Below, in pieces: positions 12,452 through 25,279 of a stretch of DNA of 33,568 bases (its first letter is position 1; every line of letters begins with the position of its first letter). The DNA is taken from NCBI RefSeq assembly GCF_988242995.1, contig NZ_OZ547045.1. One strand, 5' to 3'. The notes under the pieces were generated by a model. It worked only from the letters and a program-made list of their open reading frames with translations. It was not told the DNA's origin and made no database searches. The position numbers and the translations under genes are program-made. The stretch comes from a plasmid.

Positions 12452-13036
12452 ATGAAGATAGGCTACGCCAGAAAGTCAACTAAAGAGCAAGACACATCGC
12501 TTGAGTACCAGATTGAGGCTTTACAAAAAGCCGGGTGCGAAAAGTGGTATGCGGAGCAGGTATCGAGAAGCGGTAGTAAACGGCTTAAAGCAGGTACACC
12601 AGAGTTAGAAAATTGCATCAAAGCGCTTCGCCCTGGTGACACGCTGGTTGTGTGGGCGCTAGATCGGTTGGGCGGGACTCTATTACAGCTTTTGCAGCTT
12701 ATGAATGAGCTACGCAACAAAGGCATTCATTTTGAAAGTATTAAAGAACATATCGACACACAAAGTCCAATGGGTGAAATGTACTATTCGCTCATAGCTA
12801 TTTTTTCCAATTTCGAGGTAGCCAGAAACCACGAAAGGACAATGGCCGGGCTTGCGGCTGCAAAGAAGAAAGGGCGCATTGGTGGCAGAAAACCAAAGCT
12901 ATCACCACAAGACATAAAAGAAATTAACGCGCTTGTTAAATCGCCAGAAGTTACGGTAAAAGAGATCGCGGCTCGTTTTAACGTGTCACGGCCAACGATT
13001 TACAGACACATTACCCCCGATAGTAATACTGATTAA
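12452..13036 (+). CDS. Small serine recombinase (resolvase/invertase family), probable multimer resolvase
   Basis: 194 aa. It has the catalytic N-terminus MKIGYARKSTKEQ, then LVVWALDRLG, GRIGGRKPKL and a C-terminal HTH (VSRPTIYRHI). Confidence 0.9.
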   Translation: MKIGYARKSTKEQDTSLEYQIEALQKAGCEKWYAEQVSRSGSKRLKAGTPELENCIKALRPGDTLVVWALDRLGGTLLQLLQLMNELRNKGIHFESIKEHIDTQSPMGEMYYSLIAIFSNFEVARNHERTMAGLAAAKKKGRIGGRKPKLSPQDIKEINALVKSPEVTVKEIAARFNVSRPTIYRHITPDSNTD

Positions 13037-13068
13037 CCGGCGGCAAACGGTAGCGAAGGAGCTAAACA

Positions 13069-13953
13069 GTGACAGATAAATCAGTACCAGCGAAGCAGAT
13101 AAAAACGGTAAACACCGGAATCGCGATTAAAGAGAATCCCCCCAAAGGGGATGATATGGCATTCACCCATTCGATATTGTGTCAAGTTGGCCTCCCCCGC
13201 TCTAAAGTGGATGGCCGGGAGTTCATGAGAAAATCAGGCGATGCCTGGCTAGTTGTCCAGGCCGGCTGGCTTGATGAAGGAAGCGGCCCGGTAGAACAAC
13301 CGATCCCCTACGGCTCAATGCCCCGTTTAGCGCTCGCCTGGGTATCGTCGTATGCACTCCGCAAAAAGACCCGCGAAATACCGATCGGTAAGAGTGCTAA
13401 TGAGTTCCTGCAATTAATGGGTTTATCAGGCGGCGGCAGACAATACAAAACACTACGCGAACAAATGCACGCGCTGGCAGCTTGCCGGTTGCAGTTAGGT
13501 TTTAAAGGTCGTTCTTTCAACGGCCAGCCTGTAGAGCAATTCGATGCCTGGCAGAAAGACGACCAAAGCGGCCAGCTAAGTTTATGGCCGGGCGTAATGA
13601 CCCTTTCAGAAGGGTACTTTAATGGGCTGATTGATAGCGCCGTTCCTCTCGATAACCGCGCTCTGTACGCGCTAAAGGGTTCGGCATTGTCGTTAGATGT
13701 TTATACGTGGCTTGCGCATCGTCTACACCGCATCCAGGGCCGACCGATTAAACTTCACTGGATGAATTTACGGGAGCAGTTTGCGCAAGAGTATATGGGT
13801 AAAGACCCTGACAAAGATTTTAAGAAGAAATTTCTTCCAGCTCTGCGCGACGTACTGACTGTATACCCACAGGCGAAGGTGGATAAAGTCACCGGAGGGA
13901 TATTACTGTATCCGTCTCCCCCACCTATCCCGTTCAAGGAAGGAAAAAAATAG
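13069..13953 (+). CDS. repA: Replication initiator RepA
   Basis: 294 aa with a GTG start and a GAAGGAG SD. FTHSILCQVGLPR... resembles the replication initiator protein A family, as I recall it. An iteron array lies immediately downstream. An alternative start is M30 at 13156. Confidence 0.75.
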   Translation: MTDKSVPAKQIKTVNTGIAIKENPPKGDDMAFTHSILCQVGLPRSKVDGREFMRKSGDAWLVVQAGWLDEGSGPVEQPIPYGSMPRLALAWVSSYALRKKTREIPIGKSANEFLQLMGLSGGGRQYKTLREQMHALAACRLQLGFKGRSFNGQPVEQFDAWQKDDQSGQLSLWPGVMTLSEGYFNGLIDSAVPLDNRALYALKGSALSLDVYTWLAHRLHRIQGRPIKLHWMNLREQFAQEYMGKDPDKDFKKKFLPALRDVLTVYPQAKVDKVTGGILLYPSPPPIPFKEGKK

Positions 13954-14056: not shown

Positions 14057-14400
14057 TTATCCACGTACATCCGACCCCCCTGATTACCGTACATCCGACC
14101 CCCCTTGTCGTACATCCGACCCCCTAGCTTTGTACATCCGACCCCCTAAGTCGTACATCCGACCCCCTTTTTTTGTACATCCGACCCCCTATTTTTTGTA
14201 CATTAGACCCCCTGAAAATACGTACATCAGACCCCCCCTAAACCTATAAGGTGATCTCCTGTAGGTTTCCTGTAGTTTGACCGATAGCACTTAACCTATA
14301 AATTTTGCTTCTAAGAGATCAGCCTGTATGAATGCCCTCCGATAATTTATTCAATAAAATCAGTGGATAAAATAATAAATCGAATAATTTAAGTTCAGTG
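14057..14400. other. oriV region: DnaA boxes flanking the iterons plus an A+T-rich segment
   Basis: TTATCCACG at 14057..14065 abuts iteron 1. GTGGATAA (the box on the minus strand) is at 14363..14370. The stretch 14330-14400 is strongly A+T-rich. Confidence 0.7.
14065..14238 (+). repeat. oriV iterons: 8 direct repeats of GTACATCCGACCCCC
   Basis: Copies start at 14065, 14089, 14110, 14132, 14153, 14175, 14198 (GTACATTAGACCCCC) and 14222 (GTACATCAGACCCCC). Spacing is 21-24 bp. Confidence 0.9.
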
Positions 14401-14713
14401 TGTACGTGCCAATATCAGCAGCGGGAGCCTTTGCGCTTCCTCGCTTTTGTTGTTCGTTCCTCGCGTTGCTGCGGTACGCCTCAACAAAAGACTGCGGCGA
14501 GCGCTGCGATCTCTCAGGTAACAGATTGGGATTTAGTGCAAAGGGGGGAGGTAAAAAAGAGTGAGGCCCATCACCGGCAAGTAATGGGCCTCTGTCTTTC
14601 CTGCGAAGGAGCAGATTAGACGTTGTAAGAAGTATAGACGAAAGCAGTGTGGTATTGAAAGGGGATTCAGAGCGCCCTATATTTAATCATCAATACATCA
14701 ATTTTGGTGACTT

Positions 14714-15133: not shown

Positions 15134-15579
15134 CGCCTCAGAACCCCGTAGAGCCATTCAATCAGAAAAAAGCGGCCTCATGTACAGCTCAACCAAAATA
15201 GCCGCTTACAGAGCCATACAGCGCGTATATAACCAATATCGCCCGGCGGCACCGGCGCTAACGTGCCTGTAGGGGCGCTGGCCGCGCTGCGGCCATCCCC
15301 CCAACACCCGGATAAATCGCGCCCGGCCCGTCGCTACGCGCCAGCCCGCCCGCTCAACCGGGCCGTTGTGACGGGCCACTGTTCCGGCAGCGGCATCGTG
15401 TGACAGCCCGCTAAAACCGGCTTTGCAGGGAGGGGGTGGGCGCGTCTCCCGGTTTGATCCCGCAAGGCCCGGCAATTTGACCACGTCGCCCAGGTTGAGA
15501 TCGGCGCAGTTGCCTTTTATTTGTCGGCATCGGCGCTAAATTTAAGTAAATTTATCGTACTATATAATGATACTTAAAG

Positions 15580-15608
15580 TTGACTTTTGAGGGGGAAAAG
15601 CCTATACT
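15580..15608 (+). promoter_or_regulatory. Promoter P1 (TTGACT-N17-TATACT)
   Basis: -35 at 15580..15585, -10 at 15603..15608, exact 17-bp spacer. AATGATAC lies just upstream. Confidence 0.75.
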
Positions 15609-15615
15609 TTATTTA

Positions 15616-15690
15616 CGGTTAGCAATGGTGCTGACCGACCCGGAACCAGTGGCGGCAACCGCTCCGGGGAACTTGCGAAGGGGGCAAGAA
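15616..15690 (+). promoter_or_regulatory. Structured leader L1 (hairpin 1 + hairpin 2 + TGCGAAGG SD block)
   Basis: CGGTTAGCA-ATGG-TGCTGACCG, then CCCGG-AACC-AGTGG-CGGCAA-CCGCT-CCGGG, then TGCGAAGG 10 nt before the ATG. Confidence 0.7.
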
Positions 15691-15960
15691 ATGAATTTAA
15701 CCACACTGCTTAAAAAGCATTTTGATATTGAGGAATGTACAGATGTAGACCCTATGGTAAACCGGGAGGTTTACGCCATATGGGTTTATGAAAAAGGCGA
15801 GGATTGCGAGCCGCTTTTAATCCTCAAAGATGCTCAGGATGTTATGGGCGTAGACGGCTGGCTTGTCGGGAATATCTATTCCACGTTGCAACATGGCTTA
15901 TTGCTTCAGCATGAAGAACTGAAAATGATGATCCGAAACGGCGAGATTAAGAGCCGTTAA
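15691..15960 (+). CDS. Hypothetical leading-region protein (89 aa)
   Basis: The ATG at 15691 follows the conserved leader/SD. The ORF-track start at 15580 lies in the promoter. Confidence 0.65.
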   Translation: MNLTTLLKKHFDIEECTDVDPMVNREVYAIWVYEKGEDCEPLLILKDAQDVMGVDGWLVGNIYSTLQHGLLLQHEELKMMIRNGEIKSR

Positions 15961-15969
15961 ATGTTTATG

Positions 15970-16048
15970 CGGTCGGCAATGGTGCCGACCGGCCCGGAAT
16001 CAGCGGCGGCAACCGCTCCGGGCAAACTGCGAAGGTACAGAGGCTAAT
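15970..16048 (+). promoter_or_regulatory. Structured leader L2 (intercistronic, no promoter)
   Basis: CGGTCGGCA-ATGG-TGCCGACCG carries compensatory changes relative to L1. It has a full hairpin 2 and CTGCGAAGG. Confidence 0.7.
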
Positions 16049-16264
16049 ATGTCAGTAAAAGATTTCTCCCCTACCCTGGAAATTAAATTCCATCGTCGCC
16101 GCTGGCGTATCATGGCTGGATGCTCAAGCCTGGCGTCGTTCCGCTCCGAGCAGGACGCGATTGATGCGCTCAATAAGCGGCGCTCATTCTATGAATATTG
16201 GGCCGGTTCTGCCGGTGTCCAGGCAGAGAACACCGAGCCGGTGATAGTCCACATAACCTATTGA
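16049..16264 (+). CDS. Hypothetical leading-region protein (71 aa)
   Basis: The ORF starts after leader L2 and is followed by a terminator. Confidence 0.6.
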   Translation: MSVKDFSPTLEIKFHRRRWRIMAGCSSLASFRSEQDAIDALNKRRSFYEYWAGSAGVQAENTEPVIVHITY

Positions 16265-16274
16265 ACACTTTTAA

Positions 16275-16297
16275 AGCCCGTAAACCGGGCTTTTTTA
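16275..16297 (+). terminator. Rho-independent terminator
   Basis: GCCCG-TAAAC-CGGGC followed by TTTTTT. Confidence 0.75.
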
Positions 16298-16341
16298 GTC
16301 TTTAAAGTACAATTAAAAGTAAAAAATAATGATACCAATAG

Positions 16342-16370
16342 TTGACTTATGGAGGGTGAACACCTATACT
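16342..16370 (+). promoter_or_regulatory. Promoter P2 (TTGACT-N17-TATACT)
   Basis: -35 at 16342..16347, -10 at 16365..16370. AATGATACC lies upstream. It has no GC-rich CUP segment. Confidence 0.75.
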
Positions 16371-16378
16371 TTATTCAT

Positions 16379-16453
16379 CGGTTAGCAATAGTGCTGACCG
16401 GCCCGGAACCAGCGGCGGCAACCGCTCCGGGCAAACTGCGAAGGAGTAATATT
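16379..16453 (+). promoter_or_regulatory. Structured leader L3
   Basis: Hairpin 1 has loop ATAG. Hairpin 2 is full length. CTGCGAAGGAG precedes the ATG at 16454. Confidence 0.7.
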
Positions 16454-17281
16454 ATGTTATCTAGCCGTTTTCGTTCTGCAAATATCCTGCGTTCTGACCG
16501 CCCTCTTAACGATGATCAAATCATGCGTTATGCCCCGTCTATCTTTGCAACTGAAGCGCATGAAAGCCGCTCTGACCGGTACGCTTACATTGCGACCAGC
16601 GAAGTGTTAAACGGTTTGCGTGATAACGGTTTTCATCCGTTTATGGTTTGTCAGACTCGCGTTCGCAACCTGGATAAGCGCGAACACACCAAGCACATGA
16701 TCCGTCTGCGTCATGCCGGGCAAATTAACGGTACAGAAGCGAAGGAAATCATTTTGCTTAACTCGCACGATGGCAGCAGCAGCTATCAAATGCTGGCCGG
16801 TGTATTCCGTTTCGTTTGCCATAACGGTTTAGTGTGTGGTGATACGGTAGCGGATATTCGTATTCCCCATAAAGGCGATGTTACCGAGCGCGTTATTGAA
16901 GGGGCATTTGAGGTGCTGGATCAGTTTGATATGGTTGAAAGCCATATGGAATCTATGAAGTCTGTAACGCTGGATGCGCTGGAGAAGCGTATTTTTGCAG
17001 AAGCGGCGTTAGCACTGCGTTATGACGAACAAAAAGACGGCCCCGCACCAATCGCCGCTAGCCAGCTCCTTGAGGCGCGCCGTTTTGAAGATCGCAAAGA
17101 TGATTTATGGACAACGTTTAACCGCGTACAGGAAAACATTATCCGTGGTGGTTTGAGCGCCAGAACCAAACAGGGGAAATCAACCCGTACCCGCGCCGTA
17201 ACTGGTATGGATAAAGATACGTCTTTAAACCGCGCTTTATGGATTCTCAGCGAGCGCATGAATGAAATTAAAGCCGCTTAA
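16454..17281 (+). CDS. DUF932-family protein (common in plasmid/ICE leading regions)
   Basis: 275 aa from MLSSRFRS... . [28 protein letters not shown]...[27 protein letters not shown] fits DUF932, as I recall it. The ORF-track start at 16349 lies in the promoter/leader. Confidence 0.75.
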
Positions 17282-17289
17282 TGGCAAAT

Positions 17290-17314
17290 GCCCCGCTTAC
17301 CGGCGGGGCTTTTA
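17290..17314 (+). terminator. Hairpin + T-run between the DUF932 gene and ssb (probable attenuator)
   Basis: GCCCCGC-TTACCG-GCGGGGC followed by TTTTAT. ssb has its own SD downstream (AAGGTG). Confidence 0.5.
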
Positions 17315-17337
17315 TCAACCCGAAAAAGGTGATTATC

Positions 17338-17838
17338 ATGGCTTCAAGAGGTGTTAATAAAGTAATTCTGGTCGGCAATTTAGGCCAAGATCCTGAAGTG
17401 CGTTATATGCCGAACGGCGGCGCGGTTGCCAACATTACGCTAGCCACGTCAGAAAGCTGGCGCGACAAGCAGACCGGCGAAATGAAAGAACAAACGGAAT
17501 GGCATCGCGTTGTATTATTCGGCAAGCTGGCAGAGGTCGCCGGGGAATATCTGCGCAAGGGTTCGCAGGTGTACATTGAGGGCCAGCTCAGAACACGTAA
17601 ATGGACAGATCAAGCTGGCGTGGACAAGTACACTACAGAGGTTGTCGTTAACGTTGGCGGCACTATGCAGATGTTAGGCGGTCGCCAGCAAAACGGCTCT
17701 CAGCCAGGTAATAATGAATGGGGCCAGTCGCAGCAGCCGCAAGGCGGCCAGCAGTTCAGCGGCCAGCCACAGAACACCGGCGCAGCGCCAGCGGCAGGAA
17801 ATGAGCCGCCTCCTTTTGATGATGATATTCCGTTTTAG
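17338..17838 (+). CDS. ssb: Single-stranded DNA-binding protein
   Basis: [44 protein letters not shown]..., with a Gly/Gln-rich linker and an acidic tip DDDIPF. Confidence 0.95.
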
Positions 17839-17856
17839 CCCTGATAAATATTTAAA

Positions 17857-17872
17857 TGTAAATTTATTTACA
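17857..17872. promoter_or_regulatory. A+T palindrome upstream of the KorA-like gene, containing TAAATTTA
   Basis: TGTAAAT-TT-ATTTACA. The TAAATTTA core also occurs twice in each CUP copy (for example 18806..18813 and 18816..18823). Confidence 0.4.
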
Positions 17873-17961
17873 GATTTATCTAAATAAATAACCGTTTTAG
17901 AGTTAACCTTCTGTAATTATTGATTAAATCGGCCCGTTTTCGGGCCGTAATGAGGTAAAAA

Positions 17962-18264
17962 ATGGCAGTAGAACGCATTTCCCCTGAAGAATGGCAGCGC
18001 ATCGCACCGGCATTGCGTACATGCAGCCAGGTAACGATCGATATGGCTTATGCCGTACTGGTTGATGGCCGTAAACAAGTAGATGTGGCGTCAGAGTTTG
18101 ACCGGTCAAAGCAAACGGTCAATGCGGCTATCAGGCGCGTTACTGCAATTTTTAACGAGGTTATCCCGGAAGATGAGCAGTTAGAATTTGTACAAGTCTG
18201 GTTGCCGCCAGAGCTGGCGAAGCAGGTAAAAGAAATGGCTAAACCGTATCAGAATAAAAAATAA
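17962..18264 (+). CDS. KorA/TrfB-family HTH repressor (ArdK-like candidate regulator of the leading-region promoters)
   Basis: 100 aa. The protein is colinear with RK2 KorA as I remember it (...TIDMAYAVLVDGRKQVDVASEFDRSKQTVNAAIRRV...). Confidence 0.7.
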   Translation: MAVERISPEEWQRIAPALRTCSQVTIDMAYAVLVDGRKQVDVASEFDRSKQTVNAAIRRVTAIFNEVIPEDEQLEFVQVWLPPELAKQVKEMAKPYQNKK

Positions 18265-18848
18265 CAGGAGTTATCGACATGTGTGAGTACGGATTTAAAA
18301 ACTAACTGAAAAAAATCACTTATGGCGTTCCCTGCGGGGCGGGCTTTCGTGCTGCGCATCGAGCCAGGCAAGCTGTCTCGCCCCTTCGGGCTTCAATCCC
18401 TAACGCCTCCGGGCTGTCGCCCTCCGCGCTCCGCTTGACCCCCACGCCCTGCGCCGGACTTGCCCCGCCTACGGCGGCCCCGCCCCTCCGGGGTGGCTTC
18501 GCCATCCTCTGCCAGCGGCACCGGCGCTAACGTGCCTGTAGGGGCGCTGGCCGCGCTGCGGCCATCCCCCCAACACCCGGATAAATCGCGCCCGGCCCGT
18601 CGCTACGCGCCAGCCCGCCCGCTCAACCGGGCCGTTGTGACGGGCCACTGTTCCGGCAGCGGCATCGTGTGACAGCCCGCTAAAACCGGCTTTGCAGGGA
18701 GGGGGTGGGCGCGTCTCCCGGTTTGATCCCGCAAGGCCCGGCAATTTGACCACGTCGCCCAGGTTGAGATCGGCGCAGTTGCCTTTTATTTGTCGGCATC
18801 GGCGCTAAATTTAAGTAAATTTATCGTACTATATAATGATACTTAAAG

Positions 18849-18877
18849 TTGACTTTTGAGGGGGAAAAGCCTATACT
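18849..18877 (+). promoter_or_regulatory. Promoter P3 (TTGACT-N17-TATACT)
   Basis: -35 at 18849..18854, -10 at 18872..18877. Confidence 0.75.
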
Positions 18878-18885
18878 TTATTTAT

Positions 18886-18959
18886 CGGTTAGCAATGGTG
18901 CTGACCGACCCGGAACCAGCGGCGGCAACCGCTCCGGGCAATCTGCGAAGGTGGGAATT
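18886..18959 (+). promoter_or_regulatory. Structured leader L4
   Basis: Full hairpin 1 and hairpin 2, with CTGCGAAGG before the ATG at 18960. Confidence 0.7.
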
Positions 18960-19268
18960 ATGAATACTTTCAACGCTGACAAAATCCGCTCTGAACTGGA
19001 TGTTTTAGCGAAAGAAACAATGCCCGGTTGTGGTCTTATTTACGAGCTGTATCAGCGTCGTTTGAGCGCTGCCATTGATAACTTTGTCGCTACCCTGCCA
19101 GCAGAACAACACGCCCAGGCATTTGAACTGGCCCGCCAGGAGTTTGATTACCTTTCTGCGGAAGAAATTGCTGATGAAATCCGCCGCGACTCAGAAAACG
19201 GCTATTGCAGCCACGGCATTGATCGCAATTGCTGCCCTTTGGGTTGCGGGGATTTGGACGATTATTAA
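18960..19268 (+). CDS. Hypothetical acidic leading-region protein (102 aa) with a Cys-rich C-terminus
   Basis: The ATG follows leader L4. The C-terminus is CSHGIDRNCCPLGCGDLDDY. Confidence 0.65.
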   Translation: MNTFNADKIRSELDVLAKETMPGCGLIYELYQRRLSAAIDNFVATLPAEQHAQAFELARQEFDYLSAEEIADEIRRDSENGYCSHGIDRNCCPLGCGDLDDY

Positions 19269-19303
19269 TTGACAGGGGGCTATTGCCCCCTACAACCAAA
19301 ACG

Positions 19304-19351
19304 GGCGGCGGCAACCGCCACTATTTAAACAATCTGCGAAGGATATAGATT
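19304..19351 (+). promoter_or_regulatory. Partial leader L5 (hairpin-2 core + CTGCGAAGG)
   Basis: GGCGG-CGGCAA-CCGCC, where the outer pair has changed from A-T to G-C. CTGCGAAGG is at 19334..19342. Confidence 0.6.
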
Positions 19352-19774
19352 ATGAGCGCATACGTGGTATCTGATAAATCCATTTCTACTATCGTTAAAA
19401 CTCTGGTTATTGCCGGTACACTTCAACCTGTCGAAGCTGTTTCTTTTGGTCAGATGATGCTTAATCTGAATACTCATTCCGTTAATATTCGCTATCAAGA
19501 AAACAGCCCGGCGCACCCTTTTGAATACAGCGACCCGGAATTAAATATCCATGACCCCAAAACTCAAATGCAGGTGATTGTCTGTATTGATGAATATGAA
19601 TATCAGTCCTGCGAGTTTGCCGAATACTATGAAACGATGGTGCATACAGTCCTAAAAGCCATCAAATCAGCGCTTATGCAGGCTTACACGGATATGTTGC
19701 CTAACCCATCGCAATGGAAAGAAAAAAAGTCCTATGACTTGCCAGGCTACTCAGAAGCTGAATGGGGTTTATGA
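19352..19774 (+). CDS. Hypothetical leading-region protein (140 aa)
   Basis: The ORF follows leader L5 and is followed by two hairpins. Confidence 0.65.
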   Translation: MSAYVVSDKSISTIVKTLVIAGTLQPVEAVSFGQMMLNLNTHSVNIRYQENSPAHPFEYSDPELNIHDPKTQMQVIVCIDEYEYQSCEFAEYYETMVHTVLKAIKSALMQAYTDMLPNPSQWKEKKSYDLPGYSEAEWGL

Positions 19775-19808
19775 TTGAACGGGGGGGAAATCCCCCCCTT
19801 CTACCTGA

Positions 19809-19829
19809 AGGGGCTACGCCCCTTTTTTT
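19809..19829 (+). terminator. Rho-independent terminator, preceded by a G7/C7 hairpin at 19781..19798
   Basis: AGGGGC-TAC-GCCCCT followed by T7. Confidence 0.75.
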
Positions 19830-19848
19830 ATGCCGGTTTTATGCCGCT

Positions 19849-20003
19849 TACTTATGGCGTTCCCTGCGGGCCGGGCTTTCGTGCTGCGCATCGAGCCAGG
19901 CAAGCTGTCTCGCCCCTTCGGGCTTCAATCCCTAACGCCTCCGGGCTTTCGCCCTCCGCGCTCCGCTTGGCCTCCGGGCTTTCGCCCTCCGCGCTTTGCT
20001 TGG
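19849..20003 (+). repeat. Partial CUP module M1 with an internal 33-bp tandem duplication
   Basis: Matches the first ~120 bp of copies B and C. The unit CCTCCGGGCTTTCGCCCTCCGCGCTCCGCTTGG (19938..19970) is repeated at 19971..20003 with 2 substitutions. Confidence 0.85.
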
Positions 20004-20031
20004 CCTTTCCAGCCGGTGCCAGCTCCGGGCC

Positions 20032-20284
20032 GCGAGGATAACCGGCGGGAGGCGAACTGTCCTCCACAGCTCCCCGTTCCGTTGGATGGTCTGCCGTTCC
20101 TCCATTACCGGTATTCCACACTAGCGCGGTGTGGCGTCAATAGTTCGCTTCGCCGCTTCGCGCTATTGACCCCACCCCTTGCGCCAGTGTTACACACCGG
20201 TTGTCGGAAACGACAAACCCTCCAACTACCCTACAGGTGCTTTATGGCCGAAATTCTCCAACTCCTCCCGCCGGTTATCCTCGC
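20032..20284 (+). repeat. Perfect 21-bp long-range inverted repeat bracketing a structured 211-nt segment
   Basis: GCGAGGATAACCGGCGGGAGG (20032..20052) pairs with CCTCCCGCCGGTTATCCTCGC (20264..20284). Internal hairpins are CCACAC/GTGTGG, GTCAATAG/CTATTGAC and TTGTCG-GAAA-CGACAA. Confidence 0.9.
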
Positions 20285-20348
20285 TATTGCAGCCCTCATC
20301 ACAGCCATCACCGGGCTAATAAAAGTCCTGAAAAGCAAGAAGAAGTAA
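20244..20348 (+). CDS. 34-aa hydrophobic peptide with a Lys-rich tail (type I toxin-like)
   Basis: MAEILQLLPPVILAIAALITAITGLIKVLKSKKK, with an AGGTG SD 5 nt upstream. Codons 7-14 form the right arm of the 21-bp inverted repeat. A strong terminator follows. Confidence 0.55.
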   Translation: MAEILQLLPPVILAIAALITAITGLIKVLKSKKK

Positions 20349-20351
20349 CGG

Positions 20352-20380
20352 AAAGGGGCGGCAAGCCGCCCCTTTCCCCT
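20352..20380 (+). terminator. Rho-independent terminator
   Basis: AAAGGGGCGGC-AA-GCCGCCCCTTT, an 11-bp stem. Confidence 0.8.
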
Positions 20381-21004
20381 GCTCCCCTTGCTTACCCTGC
20401 TGTACGATCCGTGGATTTCACAGTTGAATAATTTTTTGTGGTCGCCGTAATTGGCCCCGCTGCGCCAGTCGCTTACTTAGGGCGTTCCCTGCGGGCCGGG
20501 CTTTCGTGCTGCGCATCGAGCCAGGCAAGCTGTCTCGCCCCTTCGGGCTTCAATCCCTAACGCCTCCGGGCTTCGCCCTCCGCGCTCCGCTTGGCCCCCA
20601 CGCCCTGCGCCGGACTTGCCCCGCCTACGGCGGCCCCGCCCCTCCGGGGTGGCTTCGCCATCCTCTGCCAGCGGCACCGGCGCTAACGTGCCTGTAGGGG
20701 CGCTGGCCGCGCTGCGGCCATCCCCCCAACACCCGGATAAATCGCGCCCGGCCCGTCGCTACGCGCCAGCCCGCCCGCTCAACCGGGCCGTTGTGACGGG
20801 CCACTGTTCCGGCAGCGGCATCGTGTGACAGCCCGCTAAAACCGGCTTTGCAGGGAGGGGGGGGGCGCGTCTCCCGGTTTGATCCCGCAAGGCCCGGCAA
20901 TTTGACCACGTCGCCCAGGTTGAGATCGGCGCAATTGCCTTTTATTTGTCGGCATCGGCGCTAAATTTAAGTAAATTTACCGTACTATATAATGATACTT
21001 AAAG

Positions 21005-21033
21005 TTGACTTTTTAGGGGGGAAAATCTATACT
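21005..21033 (+). promoter_or_regulatory. Promoter P4 (TTGACT-N17-TATACT)
   Basis: -35 at 21005..21010, -10 at 21028..21033. Confidence 0.75.
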
Positions 21034-21040
21034 TTATTTA

Positions 21041-21113
21041 CGGTTAGCAATGGTGCTGACCGACCCGGAACCAGCGGCGGCAACCGCTCCGGGTAATCTG
21101 CGAAGGAAAATGT
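21041..21113 (+). promoter_or_regulatory. Structured leader L6
   Basis: Full hairpins 1 and 2, with CTGCGAAGG before the ATG at 21114. Confidence 0.7.
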
Positions 21114-21395
21114 ATGAATACGACCCTTTTTGTTTTAATCCTTGCCGTAGCTGGCGCGTTGTATCTGCCCTGGCGACTTGTGCGCGATGGTTACAAAGAG
21201 CTTGTACAGATGTGTCTGTTTTGCTCCTGTATCGTCACGCTGGCCGCTGTATATGCCGTGTTGGTCAATCTCAATAACCCACACCCGTTTATGCCTATGT
21301 TTATCGCGGTAACGGCGTTCGGTGCGGTATTTGTGGCTGATTGCGCTTTATCTCTCTGGCTCTATCAGCGTAAAGCTAAGACGGCTAACCACTAA
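21114..21395 (+). CDS. Small polytopic membrane protein (93 aa)
   Basis: The ATG follows leader L6. There are three hydrophobic segments. A terminator follows. Confidence 0.65.
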   Translation: MNTTLFVLILAVAGALYLPWRLVRDGYKELVQMCLFCSCIVTLAAVYAVLVNLNNPHPFMPMFIAVTAFGAVFVADCALSLWLYQRKAKTANH

Positions 21396-21406
21396 CCACT
21401 AACTAA

Positions 21407-21429
21407 ACCGCCCTGCGGGGCGGTTTTTA
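21407..21429 (+). terminator. Rho-independent terminator
   Basis: ACCGCCC-TGC-GGGGCGGT followed by TTTTT. Confidence 0.75.
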
Positions 21430-21449
21430 ACCGTGATACGGGGGCAATT

Positions 21450-21692
21450 ATGGGAAACATCATTTTGATGGCCGAGAAGCTAAAAGGCGCGGTTTCCGAT
21501 GAATATGAAGTGTATGAATTTGAGGGCATGGATGATTTGATCCGGTTTCGTAAGAAATACCCGGAACAAATGAAGTATGAATATTCTTACTGTCTATCTG
21601 GCGGTACGAAAGATTTTCACCATATTGCGCTCGTCGAAGCTGACCATTTTAAGCAGTTCAAAAAGCAGGTTGACCAGTACCAGGCTCGATAA
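21450..21692 (+). CDS. Hypothetical leading-region protein (80 aa)
   Basis: ORF with a G-rich SD (acgggggcaattATG). A terminator follows. Confidence 0.55.
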   Translation: MGNIILMAEKLKGAVSDEYEVYEFEGMDDLIRFRKKYPEQMKYEYSYCLSGGTKDFHHIALVEADHFKQFKKQVDQYQAR

Positions 21693-21699
21693 CCTTGAA

Positions 21700-21727
21700 C
21701 GGCGCGGCAATACCGCGCTGTTTTTTA
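21700..21727 (+). terminator. Rho-independent terminator
   Basis: CGGCGCGG-CAATA-CCGCGCTG followed by TTTTTT. Confidence 0.7.
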
Positions 21728-21746
21728 CCCTCTATTTATGTCTTAT

Positions 21747-21771
21747 TTTAGTATCATATTATGATACTAAA
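21747..21771. promoter_or_regulatory. Perfect 25-bp palindromic operator abutting promoter P5
   Basis: TTTAGTATCATA-T-TATGATACTAAA. The right half (ATGATACT.AA) is the element conserved upstream of P1-P4. Confidence 0.65.
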
Positions 21772-21773
21772 TA

Positions 21774-21802
21774 TTGACTTATCAGGCCGCAAAAAGTATA
21801 CT
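21774..21802 (+). promoter_or_regulatory. Promoter P5 (TTGACT-N17-TATACT)
   Basis: -35 at 21774..21779, -10 at 21797..21802. Confidence 0.75.
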
Positions 21803-21810
21803 TTATTTAT

Positions 21811-21851
21811 CGGTTAGCAATGGTGCTGACCGTATGCGAAGGAGTAAAGTT
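21811..21851 (+). promoter_or_regulatory. Truncated leader L7 (hairpin 1 + TATGCGAAGGAG; hairpin 2 absent)
   Basis: CGGTTAGCA-ATGG-TGCTGACCG is joined directly to TATGCGAAGGAG. Confidence 0.6.
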
Positions 21852-22007
21852 ATGAAAAAATTCATTGGCAACCGTAACGGCAAGGCGGTTTTTCAGGAAG
21901 GTGATCGTGAGTTGGTAGCCGCTTACCAGATGAAATCCTCCCCGATTCCGGTAACGCCACGCAAGCTGAAAGCTGAAATGGATGCTATCGCCGCTACAGC
22001 CCGATAA
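21852..22007 (+). CDS. Hypothetical small protein (51 aa)
   Basis: The ATG at 21852 follows leader L7 and a strong SD (GAAGGAG). Confidence 0.55.
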   Translation: MKKFIGNRNGKAVFQEGDRELVAAYQMKSSPIPVTPRKLKAEMDAIAATAR

Positions 22008-22043
22008 TCATTCACCCGCGCCGTTGGCGCGGGTAACTCTCAC

Positions 22044-22082
22044 AGCGGCGGCAACCGCTTTTTTATGCGAAGGAGCAACGCG
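22044..22082 (+). promoter_or_regulatory. Partial leader L8 (hairpin-2 core + T-run + TATGCGAAGGAG)
   Basis: AGCGG-CGGCAA-CCGCT-TTTTT, then ATGCGAAGGAG before the ATG at 22083. Confidence 0.55.
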
Positions 22083-22265
22083 ATGTATCTATCTTTGATG
22101 GAACAAGCACGACAGGCAGAGGAATTGCGCGACTGGAAAACCGCCGCGCAACTCTACACCCAGGCGATGGCCGTTAGTCCAAAAGCCAGAACTATGCGCC
22201 AGCGCCGCGAAAGGCTGTATCTGCAACAGCGCATTGAGTTTTGCGAGCGTAATTCGAGAATGTAA
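22083..22265 (+). CDS. Hypothetical helical small protein (60 aa)
   Basis: The ATG at 22083 follows leader L8. A bidirectional terminator follows. Confidence 0.55.
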   Translation: MYLSLMEQARQAEELRDWKTAAQLYTQAMAVSPKARTMRQRRERLYLQQRIEFCERNSRM

Positions 22266-24815: not shown

Positions 24816-24876
24816 ACCACCCCCGCTTGTCGAATTTCACTATATGGCAGCCTGTTTTAGCTGTCAATCGGTTTTT

Positions 24877-25012
24877 GTAGTATTTCAGTAGTATTCCTGT
24901 AGTAATTCAGTAGTAACGCTTGTCGATACCGCTCATTTTTGTAGTATATCTGTAGTAATGGCTATTTCAGTTTGTAGTATTTTAGTAGTAATTCAGTAGT
25001 ATCGGTGTAGAA
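24877..25012. repeat. Phased GTAGTA repeat array (putative StbA-binding, centromere-like site)
   Basis: GTAGTA at 24877, 24888, 24899, 24910, 24941, 24952, 24974, 24985 and 24996, plus GTAGAA at 25007. Within each cluster the copies fall on an 11-bp lattice. Confidence 0.7.
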
Positions 25013-25121
25013 AACTTTCATGCAAGCATGAAAGTGGTGAATGTGAACGCTTTTTGAGCGTTTTATGCGTGTGTAAGACCTGTTTCTCCCTTAAAAAAGG
25101 CGTGTTATGGTATCCCTTAAT

Positions 25122-25160
25122 GGCTATACACCATACGCAATTACGATTTTCATCGTAAAT
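25122..25160 (-). other. oriT core: inverted repeat + predicted nic site (minus strand)
   Basis: The minus strand reads ATTTACGAT-GAAA-ATCGTAAT-TGCGTATGGTGT/ATAGCC. This resembles the R388 site GCGCACC-GAAA-GGTGCGT-ATTGTCT/ATAGCC, as I recall it. The predicted nick is between 25128 and 25127. Confidence 0.6.
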
Positions 25161-25197: not shown

Positions 25198-25279
25198 CAT
25201 ATGTAATACACTACGTATTACATATGTGTGTCTAAGCCGCATATATGCTAGATTTAACTGTATTACATCGGTATTACAT
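25198..25279. promoter_or_regulatory. 12-bp inverted repeat plus 11-bp-spaced direct repeats of GTATTACAT upstream of the RHH gene
   Basis: CATATGTAATAC-ACTAC-GTATTACATATG (25198..25226). GTATTACAT also occurs at 25260 and 25271. These are probably binding sites for the accessory protein and part of its promoter. Confidence 0.55.

What the first reader, a model, noticed from the sequence alone, without database searches (positions are those of the whole stretch)
15616..22082. Structured leader element of about 75 nt repeated eight times in front of leading-region genes, with compensatory base changes
The consensus is CGGTTAGCA-ATGG-TGCTGACCG (hairpin 1), a 1-2 nt linker, then hairpin 2: CCCGG-AACC-AGCGG-CGGCAA-CCGCT-CCGGG. 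Hairpin 2 has an outer stem, a bulge, an inner stem and a 6-nt loop. About 5 nt later comes CTGCGAAGG(AG), followed by the start codon 7-13 nt downstream.

Full copies are at 15616, 15970, 16379, 18886 and 21041. Modular partial copies are at 19304 (hairpin-2 core), 21811 (hairpin 1 only) and 22044 (hairpin-2 core).

The intercistronic copy at 15970 has CGGTCGGCA...TGCCGACCG. An A-T pair becomes G-C and a T.G wobble becomes C-G. The copy at 19304 changes the inner stem from AGCGG/CCGCT to GGCGG/CCGCC. The copy at 15616 has AGTGG/CCGCT, a wobble. These wobble pairs are tolerated only in the plus sense. That argues for a structure in the mRNA rather than in the transferred minus-strand DNA.

The element occurs both directly after promoters, where hairpin 1 would sit at the extreme 5' end of the transcript, and between cistrons without a promoter. 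I do not know of a described RNA family with this sequence.
Basis: seen in the sequence. Interest (0 to 1): 0.78.

Follow-up and report, generated by a model that had tools for sequence, protein, structure and literature searches.

The report
Structured leader of plasmid establishment genes
The repeated ~75-nt two-hairpin element is real; it is the transcribed end of the known IncN "CUP" repeats, and its second hairpin, with an invariant CGGCAA loop just upstream of the ribosome-binding site, also occurs in IncW, IncP-9 and other Pseudomonas plasmids, so it is probably an undescribed mRNA leader for early plasmid-establishment genes.

Summary

The window is an IncN plasmid. The element is the 3', transcribed end of the known CUP (conserved upstream) repeats. 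Five TTGACT-17-TATACT promoters each sit 7-8 nt upstream of hairpin 1.

The new result concerns hairpin 2 plus the GC(G)A(A)GGAG ribosome-binding motif. This module is not IncN-specific. It precedes 5-10 leading-region genes in IncW R388, IncP-9, pMBUI4 and Pseudomonas syringae plasmids.

Its stems covary: 8 of 11 pairs change on both sides, and 0 of 500 shuffles reach the observed score. The CGGCAA loop persists on completely different stems. In DUF932 orthologues the leader is 87-93% identical, against 63-64% for the adjacent coding DNA.

Hairpin 1 is replaced by unrelated hairpins in other families, always starting 4-8 nt after the -10 box.

An mRNA leader is the best explanation: a 5'-terminal stabilising hairpin plus a loop-specific hairpin next to the ribosome-binding site. 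A structure in the transferred DNA strand is not excluded. There is no Rfam match, and no accessible paper describes the structure.

The parts
15580..15608 (+). CUP promoter 1 (TTGACT-17-TATACT). Hairpin 1 starts 8 nt after the -10 box.
   Evidence: 10/12 match; sequence
15616..15693 (+). Full leader copy A. Hairpin 1 15616-15637; hairpin 2 15639-15668 (inner stem AGTGG/CCGCT with a U.G wobble); TGCGAAGG 15674-15681; ATG 15691 (89-aa ORF).
15970..16051 (+). Full leader copy B, intercistronic, with no promoter predicted. Hairpin 1 variant CGGTCGGCA/TGCCGACCG 15970-15991; hairpin 2 15992-16023; TGCGAAGG 16028-16035; ATG 16049.
16342..16370 (+). CUP promoter 2 (truncated CUP).
16379..16456 (+). 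Full leader copy C. Hairpin 1 16379-16400; hairpin 2 16401-16432; TGCGAAGGAG from 16437; ATG 16454 (DUF932 protein).
18849..18877 (+). CUP promoter 3.
18886..18962 (+). Full leader copy D. Hairpin 1 18886-18907; hairpin 2 18909-18938; TGCGAAGG 18944-18951; ATG 18960 (CcgAII-like ORF).
   Evidence: annotation of the near-identical plasmid
19274..19354 (+). Modular intercistronic copy G. A different hairpin GGGGGC-TATT-GCCCCC at 19274-19291; hairpin-2 core GGCGG-CGGCAA-CCGCC at 19304-19319 with no outer stem; TGCGAAGG 19335-19342; ATG 19352.
   Evidence: E 1.4e-5
21005..21033 (+). CUP promoter 4.
21041..21116 (+). Full leader copy E. Hairpin 1 21041-21062; hairpin 2 21063-21094; TGCGAAGG 21099-21106; ATG 21114.
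21774..21802 (+). CUP promoter 5 (truncated CUP), preceded by the palindrome AGTATCATA-T-TATGATACT.
   Evidence: sequence
21811..21854 (+). Copy F. Hairpin 1 only (21811-21832), joined through TA to TGCGAAGGAG (21835-); ATG 21852. Hairpin 2 is precisely absent.
22014..22085 (+). Modular intercistronic copy H. A different hairpin ACCCGCGCC-GTT-GGCGCGGGT at 22014-22034; hairpin-2 core AGCGG-CGGCAA-CCGCT at 22044-22059 followed by TTTTTT (terminator-like); TGCGAAGGAG from 22066; ATG 22083.
13036..13071 (+). ACCG-GCGGCAAA-CGGT, then GCGAAGGAG (13053-), with the GTG start at 13069.
14563..14611 (+). Orphan relative. A 9-bp hairpin GAGGCCCAT/ATGGGCCTC with CGGCAA inside its loop, followed by TGCGAAGGAG (14602-), but no ORF.
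   Evidence: z = -3.5
15148..15690 (+). Long CUP repeat copy 1 (GC-rich body, promoter and leader). Paralogues lie at about 18318-18959 and 20475-21113.
   Evidence: families D1-D5, 99-100% identity between copies
25122..25140 (-). oriT nick region. It reads TTGCGTATGGTGTATAGCC on the minus strand and aligns with the R388 nick region. This makes the minus strand the transferred strand, so the leader genes use it as their template.
   Evidence: The position of the R388 nick within GTCT/ATAGC is from memory of the R388 literature.

Best explanation
The element is the 5' untranslated leader of the mRNAs made from the CUP promoters of an IncN plasmid. It is reiterated in reduced form in front of internal cistrons.

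Shown:
- Five strong sigma-70-type promoters are each followed, 7-8 nt after the -10 box, by hairpin 1.
- Hairpin 2 follows after a 0-1 nt linker and ends 5 nt before GCGAAGG(AG). The start codon lies 7-13 nt further on.
- Hairpin 2 is a covarying two-helix stem with a 4-5 nt A-rich 5' bulge and an invariant CGGCAA hexaloop.
- In DUF932 orthologues, hairpin 2 is conserved between IncN and Pseudomonas plasmids far better than the coding DNA.

Inferred mechanism:
1. After entry into a recipient, the promoters fire before the ArdK repressor accumulates (zygotic induction, as described in the literature).
2. Transcripts start at or 1-2 nt before hairpin 1. Their 5' end is therefore base-paired and shielded from 5'-end-dependent decay, in the manner of the ompA stabiliser. 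Only the structure matters, which explains why other plasmid families carry unrelated hairpins at the same place.
3. Hairpin 2 gives every cistron the same insulated, unpaired ribosome-binding site. Its loop is probably read by a trans-acting factor, not yet identified, that coordinates translation or stability of the whole establishment gene set.
For: Position:
- Promoters lie at 15580, 16342, 18849, 21005 and 21774, with hairpin 1 at 15616, 16379, 18886, 21041 and 21811.
- In six plasmid lineages with unrelated stem sequences, the first hairpin starts 4-8 nt after the -10 box.
- 74 of 86 GGCGGCAACC sites in 16 loci are followed by SD, start codon and an ORF of at least 40 aa. The distance from the motif's end to the start codon is 24-44 nt, median 31. 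Seventy-nine sites lie on the gene strand and 7 on the other.

Structure:
- On 68 distinct hairpin-2 sequences, 86.4% of cells are paired against 78.7% in shuffles (0/500). Eight of 11 pairs change on both sides, in 50 cells. The covariation score is 0.205 against 0.091 (0/500). Slid controls give 32-46% paired.
- Stem variants seen: CCTGG/CCAGG, CTTGG/CCAAG, GACGG/CCGTC, CACGG/CCGTG, AGGGG/CCCCT, GGCGG/CCGCC.
- In a scan anchored on GCGAAGG rather than on the loop, CGGCAA persists on stems AGGA/TCCT, AGCA/TGCT, GCC/GGC and GAGG/CCTC.

Conservation:
- In DUF932 orthologues the coding DNA is 63-64% identical, the hairpin-2-to-SD leader 87-93%, and the hairpin-1 region 40-57%.

Strand:
- The third outer pair shows C-G, U.G (about 10 distinct copies) and U-A, but no C.A copy appears in the fitted table of true elements.
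- The window's hairpin 1 is more stable on the + strand, -13.6 against -8.9 kcal/mol.

Folding:
- The two hairpins are the minimum-energy fold, with the SD free. The same architecture appears in the R388 Pssb and pMBUI4 leaders.
Against: - No transcript 5' ends or half-lives are available. The 5'-terminal position of hairpin 1 rests on promoter geometry alone.
- Strand evidence is weak. For hairpin 2 the count is 14 G.U against 7 A.C, and most of the G.U are one substitution in related plasmids. For hairpin 1 across families it is 16 G.U against 22 A.C.
- Minus-strand folds are on average as stable or more stable.
- All copies share one orientation relative to oriT, so the transferred-strand reading cannot be excluded.
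- Copy 21811 lacks hairpin 2 and copies 19304 and 22044 lack hairpin 1, so neither hairpin is indispensable for every gene.
- No binding partner for the loop was found.
- High identity among paralogues could partly reflect gene conversion.
Confidence: 0.55

Rival explanations
1. The hairpins act in the transferred single strand (the minus strand) after conjugation. They could be SSB-free entry sites for priming of complementary-strand synthesis, or roadblocks that time conversion to double-stranded DNA. Both roles are described for stem-loops in the F leading region.
For: - The minus strand is the transferred strand, and the region enters early.
- The complement folds equally well or better: mean -17.1 against -16.2 kcal/mol for hairpin 2, and IncP-9 hairpin 1 is more stable on the minus strand.
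- A.C outnumbers G.U in hairpin 1 across families, 22 against 16.
- The copies are spaced 0.4-2.5 kb apart, like priming sites.
- F-plasmid work shows that leading-region stem-loops prime or stall conversion.
Against: - A priming or roadblock site has no reason to sit at a fixed 24-44 nt from start codons or 4-8 nt after a -10 box.
- The U.G but never C.A intermediates in the hairpin-2 outer stem fit the plus strand.
- The transferred-strand fold of a whole CUP does not form a double-stranded -35/-10, so it is not Frpo-like.
Confidence: 0.15
2. The conserved leader is mainly a cassette boundary. A shared ~45-nt sequence in front of each gene allows homologous recombination to shuffle establishment and anti-defence genes within and between plasmids. 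It is kept uniform by gene conversion rather than by a function of its own, in the manner of the promoter-stem-loop cassettes of T4-type phages.
For: - The gene content behind the leaders differs between plasmid families while the leader is 87-93% identical.
- The literature reports deletions, inversions and translocations by recombination between CUPs.
- Modular partial copies exist.
Against: Recombination alone does not explain three observations. Stems are kept by compensatory changes. The loop is retained on completely different stems. Position relative to the SD and the -10 box is fixed. Shuffling may be a consequence of the leader rather than its cause.
Confidence: 0.1
3. Hairpin 1 is a palindromic double-stranded DNA operator lying over +1 to +22, bound by a plasmid repressor (ArdK, ArdR, StbA or another).
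For: - It is a 9-4-9 near-palindrome placed where many operators lie.
- Its left arm plus AGCAAT is much better conserved than its right arm in Pseudomonas plasmids.
- R388 StbA also represses ArdK-controlled promoters.
Against: - ArdK operators are direct repeats next to the -35 box.
- The StbA-type repeats of this plasmid, (T/C)(G/A)GTAGTA at 24872-25010, do not resemble hairpin 1.
- Hairpin 1 also occurs between cistrons without a promoter, at 15970.
- Stems differ completely between families yet stay complementary.
Confidence: 0.07
4. The two adjacent promoter-proximal stem-loops act in the nascent RNA on RNA polymerase. This would be processive antitermination of the put (HK022) or conAn (pLS20) type, letting transcription read through the terminators between establishment genes.
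For: - Two stem-loops separated by 0-1 nt lie directly after the promoter.
- Terminator-like hairpins lie between the genes, at 16273, 17290, 19807 and 21704.
- pLS20 establishment genes use such a system.
Against: - Hairpin 2 is repeated in front of internal cistrons and stays tied to the SD, which an RNA-polymerase-modifying signal does not need.
- Each operon has its own promoter.
- There is no sequence or Rfam similarity.
Confidence: 0.05

Closest known systems
CUP (conserved upstream) repeats of the IncN plasmids pKM101/R46 (Belogurov 1993; Delver & Belogurov 1997, as cited)
   Same: This is the same object at the DNA level. Long repeats precede leading-region operons of an IncN plasmid, carry a strong promoter at their 3' end, and sit in an ArdK-controlled regulon.
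   Different: The accessible literature treats CUPs as promoter plus ArdK-binding site and as recombination substrates. It notes that their regulatory function has 'not been studied in detail'. I found no description of the two-hairpin RNA structure, the invariant loop or its presence outside IncN. I could not read the 1993 and 1997 papers themselves.
5'-terminal stabiliser hairpins and RBS-proximal hairpin of the E. coli ompA 5' UTR (Emory 1992; Arnold 1998; from memory)
   Same: One stem-loop lies at the extreme 5' end of the transcript and a second lies next to the ribosome-binding site. In hairpin 1 the structure is conserved rather than the sequence.
   Different: Here the second hairpin has an invariant loop sequence. 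The module is repeated before many genes and shared between plasmid families. Its function is untested.
PeSL (promoter-early stem-loop) cassettes of T4-type phages (Arbiol 2010; from memory)
   Same: Repeated promoter-plus-stem-loop units precede small, variable early genes of a mobile element, and they are associated with modular gene shuffling.
   Different: There is no sequence relation, the element is a plasmid rather than a phage, and an extra loop-specific hairpin is tied to the SD.
Frpo / ssi single-strand promoters of the F leading region (Masai & Arai 1997, as cited)
   Same: Stem-loops lie in the leading region, and the genes use the transferred strand as template.
   Different: Frpo is a long hairpin that itself forms the -35/-10 in single-stranded DNA. 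Here the promoter lies outside the hairpins and does not become double-stranded in the predicted fold.
ArdK-regulated promoters of IncW R388
   Same: The regulon is homologous (ssb, ardC, orf7, orf12, orf14). R388 leaders carry the same CGGCAA-loop hairpin upstream of GCAGGAG.
   Different: The published work addresses the ArdK and StbA operators and transcriptional dynamics only. The papers I read mention no leader structure (0 occurrences of hairpin, UTR or leader).

Membership tests
IncN CUP repeat | Long (>400 bp) conserved repeat upstream of leading-region transcription units of an IncN plasmid | tested here: met
   Three copies of about 540-640 bp are 99-100% identical over 300 nt, and there are two truncated promoter-proximal copies. 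The best plasmid hit is typed IncN/MOBF.
IncN CUP repeat | Strong sigma-70 promoter near the 3' end | tested here: met
   Five TTGACT-17-TATACT sites. This is a consensus match only; activity was not measured.
IncN CUP repeat | Control by ArdK through direct repeats beside the -35 box | tested here: inconclusive
   An ArdK/KorA-family gene is present at 17962-18264. The operator was not delineated here. The literature places it at the -35 box, not in the hairpins.
Any Rfam family | Covariance-model score at the gathering threshold | tested here: not met
   There are 0 hits at gathering over the whole window. Only irrelevant sub-threshold hits appear at E up to 10 in 15500-22200.
5'-terminal mRNA stabiliser hairpin (ompA type) | Stem-loop beginning within about 0-3 nt of the transcript 5' end | tested here: inconclusive
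   Stems start 4-8 nt after the -10 hexamer in every promoter-proximal copy of six lineages. No transcription start site has been mapped for this plasmid.
5'-terminal mRNA stabiliser hairpin (ompA type) | Removal shortens, and restoration lengthens, mRNA half-life | not testable with these tools
   This needs rifampicin-chase or reporter experiments.
Frpo-type single-strand promoter | The transferred strand folds so that -35 and -10 lie in a duplex stem | tested here: not met
   A DNA fold of 18640-18960 (minus strand) shows only short local hairpins; the -35/-10 do not form a long stem.
Intrinsic terminator | GC-rich hairpin followed by a T-run | tested here: not met
   Only the copy at 22044 is followed by TTTTTT. 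All the others are followed by (G/C)AAnCTGCGAAGG.
ArdK or StbA operator (for hairpin 1) | Sequence matching the known repeats of these repressors | tested here: not met
   ArdK binds direct repeats at the -35 box. The StbA-type 11-bp repeats at 24872-25010 are unrelated to hairpin 1.

The most novel reading that the evidence does not exclude
The CGGCAA-loop hairpin is the operator of a dedicated trans-acting factor. This could be a plasmid- or host-encoded RNA-binding protein, or a kissing RNA. If so, the establishment and anti-defence genes of IncN, IncW, IncP-9 and related broad-host-range plasmids form a post-transcriptional regulon layered on ArdK repression. That layer would set the burst of early expression after conjugative entry.
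Probability: 0.25. Interest if true: 0.8.

Novelty: new member of a known kind. Interest (0 to 1): 0.6.

Why it matters
IncN, IncW and IncP-9 plasmids are major broad-host-range carriers of resistance and catabolic genes. Their fate in a new host depends on a short burst of leading-region expression (SSB, anti-restriction proteins, methylases, many unknown proteins).

Regulation of these genes has been studied only at the level of repressors and promoters. A leader hairpin that is better conserved than the proteins it precedes, and that is shared between enterobacterial and Pseudomonas plasmids, points to an unexplored post-transcriptional layer.

It also offers three practical things:
- a sequence marker for finding establishment genes;
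- a possible target for blocking plasmid establishment;
- a naturally portable 5' UTR that works across hosts.

Tried and rejected
1. **Hairpin 1 as StbA operator.** The plasmid's own StbA-type repeats near oriT are (T/C)(G/A)GTAGTA, which is unrelated.
2. **Hairpin 1 as ArdK operator.** Published ArdK operators are direct repeats at the -35 box.
3. **Frpo-like single-strand promoter.** The transferred-strand fold of a CUP gives no duplex -35/-10.
4. **A kissing partner.** A CTGG-TTGCCG-CCAG hairpin inside ardK (18197-18212) is also present in R388 ardK. It is explained by the conserved VWLPP protein motif, and IncP-9 homologues use CTG CCC instead. I treat it as coincidence.
5. **Rfam.** Nothing at gathering or at E up to 10, including CRISPR-repeat families.
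6. **Strand assignment by wobble counts or folding energies.** Inconclusive.
7. **Genome-collection scan for GCGGCGGCAACCGCNCCRGG.** Most of the 120 loci were chance matches in GC-rich genomes. True elements appeared only in Pseudomonas or Stutzerimonas contigs and in a few plasmid-like metagenome-assembled contigs.
8. **Metagenome scan GGCGGCAACC-N12-30-GCGAAGGAG.** Of 112 distinct sites, 91 were chance and only about 10 were true elements, so little diversity was gained.
9. **Viral contigs.** Nine single hits were found; I judged most to be chance, and one hairpin with the same loop in an unrelated context was not pursued.
10. **Literature.** No paper in the library contains the motif string. 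The original CUP papers are not held. The IncP-9 and pMOS94-lineage papers I read do not mention the element.

Full report

Yes. The hairpin-1 sequence CGGTTAGCAATGGTGCTGACCG, allowing up to 3 mismatches, occurs six times. All six are on the + strand, at 15616, 15970, 16379, 18886, 21041 and 21811, against 0 expected from shuffles.

The hairpin-2 core GCGGCGGCAACCGC occurs at 15649, 16003, 16412, 18919, 19305, 21074 and 22045. TGCGAAGG follows at 15674, 16028, 16437, 18944, 19335, 21099, 21835 and 22066. Start codons lie 7-13 nt further on.

RNAfold returns hairpin 1 plus hairpin 2 as the minimum-energy structure of each full copy, with z-scores of -1.5 to -2.8, and leaves the Shine-Dalgarno (SD) region unpaired in the centroid. 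A covariance model of hairpin 2, trained on an alignment that included the window's own seven copies, finds those seven and nothing else significant in the window with filters off.

- the repA leader at 13036-13071 (ACCG-GCGGCAAA-CGGT, then GCGAAGGAG);
- an orphan hairpin at 14563-14592 with CGGCAA in its loop, followed by TGCGAAGGAG but no ORF.

The two 'core only' copies at 19304 and 22044 are each preceded by another GC-rich hairpin. The general layout is therefore: a hairpin of any sequence, then the CGGCAA hairpin, then the SD.

**2. What is the surrounding DNA?**

The window is an IncN-type conjugative plasmid. Its best match is pCFSAN004085 (IncN, MOBF, MPF_T), whose annotation names DUF945/DUF932, SSB, ArdK and CcgAII in this stretch. 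Pfam confirms DUF932, SSB and KORA.

The region is the 'CUP-controlled regulon' described for pKM101/R46. CUPs (conserved upstream repeats) are repeats of more than 400 bp that precede the leading-region operons and carry a promoter and an ArdK-binding site.

In the window the long repeats are about 15148-15690, 18318-18959 and 20475-21113, with truncated promoter-proximal copies at 16302-16453 and 21734-21851. Five TTGACT-17-TATACT promoters end 7-8 nt before hairpin 1.

The oriT nick region lies on the minus strand at 25122-25140 and aligns with the nick region of R388.

**3. It is not confined to IncN.**

A sensitive BLAST of one 78-nt copy against plasmids finds 193 records. These include 79 from Pseudomonas as well as Escherichia, Klebsiella, Salmonella and others, and 173 are typed as conjugative. 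I fetched regions of the following:
- R388 (IncW);
- four IncP-9-type plasmids;
- two P. syringae plasmids;
- pMBUI4;
- pMEN15-like plasmids;
- a P. fragi plasmid;
- a Rouxiella plasmid.

In each, 1-10 genes of the establishment region are preceded by the same hairpin 2. The genes include DUF932, ssb, cytosine methyltransferases and many small unknown ORFs. The hairpin is followed by GCGAAGGAG, or by GCAGGAG in R388 and pMBUI4.

Scans of species-representative genomes, metagenomes and viral contigs added only a few Pseudomonas or plasmid-like contigs. Most other matches were chance hits in GC-rich DNA. The element looks restricted to this clade of MOBF/MPF_T plasmids and their relatives.

**4. 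Evidence that hairpin 2 is a selected structure.**

I used an ungapped alignment of 68 distinct copies. This is conservative, because copies with a 5-nt bulge are out of register. The results:

| Measure | Observed | Shuffles |
|---|---|---|
| Cells forming a standard pair | 86.4% | 78.7% (0/500 reach observed) |
| Pairs with changes on both sides | 8 of 11 (50 cells) | mean 4.9 pairs; 4/500 reach 8 (cells: 0/500) |
| Covariation score | 0.205 | 0.091 (0/500 reach observed) |
| Paired when partners are slid 1-3 columns | 32-46% | – |

Concrete variants:
- outer stem: CCCGG/CCGGG, CCTGG/CCAGG, CTTGG/CCAAG, GCCGG/CCGGC, GGCCG/CGGCC;
- inner stem: AGCGG/CCGCT, GACGG/CCGTC, CACGG/CCGTG, AGGGG/CCCCT, GGCGG/CCGCC, GAGG/CCTC.

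The loop is more striking. I ran a scan anchored on GCGAAGG rather than on the loop. In it the hairpin keeps CGGCAA even where the stem is entirely different: AGGA/TCCT, AGCA/TGCT, GCC/GGC, and the two window relatives.

For the orthologous DUF932 genes of the window and five Pseudomonas plasmids:

| Region | Nucleotide identity |
|---|---|
| Coding DNA | 63-64% (protein 61-63%) |
| 46 nt from hairpin 2 to the SD | 87-93% |
| Hairpin-1 region | 40-57% |

This pattern fits a hairpin whose loop sequence is itself read by something.

**5. Hairpin 1.**

Across lineages the first hairpin has unrelated sequences:
- IncN: CGGTTAGCA/TGCTGACCG
- Rouxiella: CAGTTAGC/GTTAACTG
- IncP-9: GTCGAAGC/GCTTCGAC
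- P. syringae: GTCAAAGC/GCTTTGA
- pMBUI4: ATCGGAACC/GGTTCCGAT
- R388 Pssb: TGGGTC/GACCCA

It always starts 4-8 nt after the -10 hexamer, that is, at or next to the expected transcript start.

Within the Pseudomonas group the left arm plus AGCAAT is nearly constant, while the right arm drifts by transitions.

**6. Which strand?**

A strand-neutral fit of hairpin 2 gives 14 G.U against 7 A.C among 79 distinct copies. Ten of the 14 are the same CCTGG/CCGGG state in related IncP-9 copies, although the reciprocal C.A state does not appear in the fitted table.

For hairpin 1 across families the count is 16 G.U against 22 A.C. IncP-9 hairpin 1 (GCCTCGAC variant) folds better on the minus strand. Wobble evidence therefore favours the plus strand only mildly for hairpin 2 and not at all for hairpin 1.

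Position is the stronger argument for RNA. Of 86 GGCGGCAACC sites in 16 loci, 74 are followed by SD, start codon and ORF, with the start codon 24-44 nt (median 31) after the motif. Seventy-nine are on the gene strand. Hairpin 1 is locked to the -10 box. A signal in the transferred DNA strand has no obvious need for nucleotide-level registration with promoters and ribosome-binding sites.

All leader-bearing genes point toward oriT in every plasmid examined. No natural inversion is available to separate the two readings.

**7. Mechanism.**

I commit to an mRNA leader, with confidence about 0.55.

Hairpin 1 would make the 5' end of the primary transcript base-paired. This is the known requirement for protection from 5'-end-dependent decay, as in the ompA-type stabiliser (established knowledge, from memory). 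It also explains why only its structure and position are conserved.

Hairpin 2 would give each cistron, including internal ones, the same insulated and unpaired ribosome-binding site. It would also present CGGCAA to an unidentified factor. This step is inferred. Both steps are untested.

Rivals:
- **A structure in the transferred strand**, used for priming or as a conversion roadblock, as now described for F. Confidence 0.15.
- **A recombination boundary** kept uniform by gene conversion. The literature documents CUP-mediated rearrangements. Confidence 0.10.
- **A DNA operator** for hairpin 1. The ArdK operators (direct repeats at the -35 box) and the plasmid's StbA-type repeats do not match. 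Confidence 0.07.
- **put/conAn-like antitermination.** Confidence 0.05.

**8. Comparison with what is known, and novelty.**

At the DNA level this is a member of the CUP repeats, which are already known. No Rfam family matches.

No paper in the searchable library contains the motif string. The R388, ArdK, IncN2 and IncP-9 papers I read discuss promoters and operators but not a leader structure. A 2018 paper states that the function of the CUP repeats has not been studied in detail.

I could not read the original 1993 and 1997 CUP papers, so prior mention of the stem-loops there cannot be excluded.

I rate it a new member of a known kind: a structured 5' UTR leader. The unexpected feature is a loop-specific hairpin conserved across plasmid incompatibility groups and host families.

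**9. Limits.**
- All structural inferences are computational.
- Many of the 68-79 sequences are paralogues or close orthologues, so counts of cells are not counts of independent events.
- The loci were found through the conserved motif. Loop invariance is therefore demonstrated independently only by the GCGAAGG-anchored scan.
- Transcription start sites are predicted, not mapped.

Noticed in passing
window 20244-20348 (+), terminator 20350-20377: A 34-aa ORF encodes a hydrophobic peptide with a lysine-rich tail (MAEILQLLPPVILAIAALITAITGLIKVLKSKKK). It is preceded by AGGTG and followed by a 12-bp GC-rich terminator-like hairpin. It lies between CUP fragments and looks like a type I toxin or small membrane peptide.
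   Followed up: no
window 14064-14240: Seven ~22-bp direct repeats (CGTACATCCGACCCCCY) lie just downstream of the replication gene at 13069-13953. They are presumably the iterons of oriV.
   Followed up: no
window 24872-25013: Eleven-bp-spaced repeats (T/C)(G/A)GTAGTA lie between the stbA-like gene and oriT, resembling StbA-binding direct repeats. Perfect inverted repeats lie at 25198-25226 and 25014-25035.
   Followed up: partly
window 18318-18800, 19850-20005, 20475-20960: The 5' body of the CUPs is very GC-rich, has no convincing ORF, and contains a 33-bp tandem duplication (GCCTCCGGGCTTTCGCCCTCCGCGCT..GCTTGGCC at 19937-20005). A promoter-less CUP fragment lies at 19850-20005. Its function is unknown.
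   Followed up: no
window 15584-15602 and paralogues; 21750-21768: The 17-nt spacer of the CUP promoters is itself a small palindrome (CTTTT-GAGGGGG-AAAAG). The truncated CUP at 21734 has a perfect 9-1-9 palindrome, AGTATCATA-T-TATGATACT, just upstream of its -35 box, where the other copies have the imperfect GTACTATATAATGATAC.
   Followed up: no
window 18197-18212 (+), inside ardK; L002 about 20322-20343 (-): A hairpin TCTGG-TTGCCG-CCAGA lies in the ardK coding region. Its loop is the exact complement of the CGGCAA loop, and R388 ardK has the same with an 8-bp stem. It coincides with the conserved VWLPP motif and is absent from IncP-9 homologues, so it is probably coincidental.
   Followed up: yes
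window 22083-22265 (+): The 60-aa product behind the last leader copy weakly resembles the ANR family of small negative regulators (NCBIfam NF033650, E 6.6e-5, below the cut-off).
   Followed up: no
L134 5560-5610 (-) and L136 (viral contigs): An intergenic hairpin GCGCCC-AAA-GCGG-CGGCAA-CCGC-TCC-GGGCGC has the same loop and a similar two-helix layout, in contigs classed as viral and apparently unrelated to these plasmids.
   Followed up: partly
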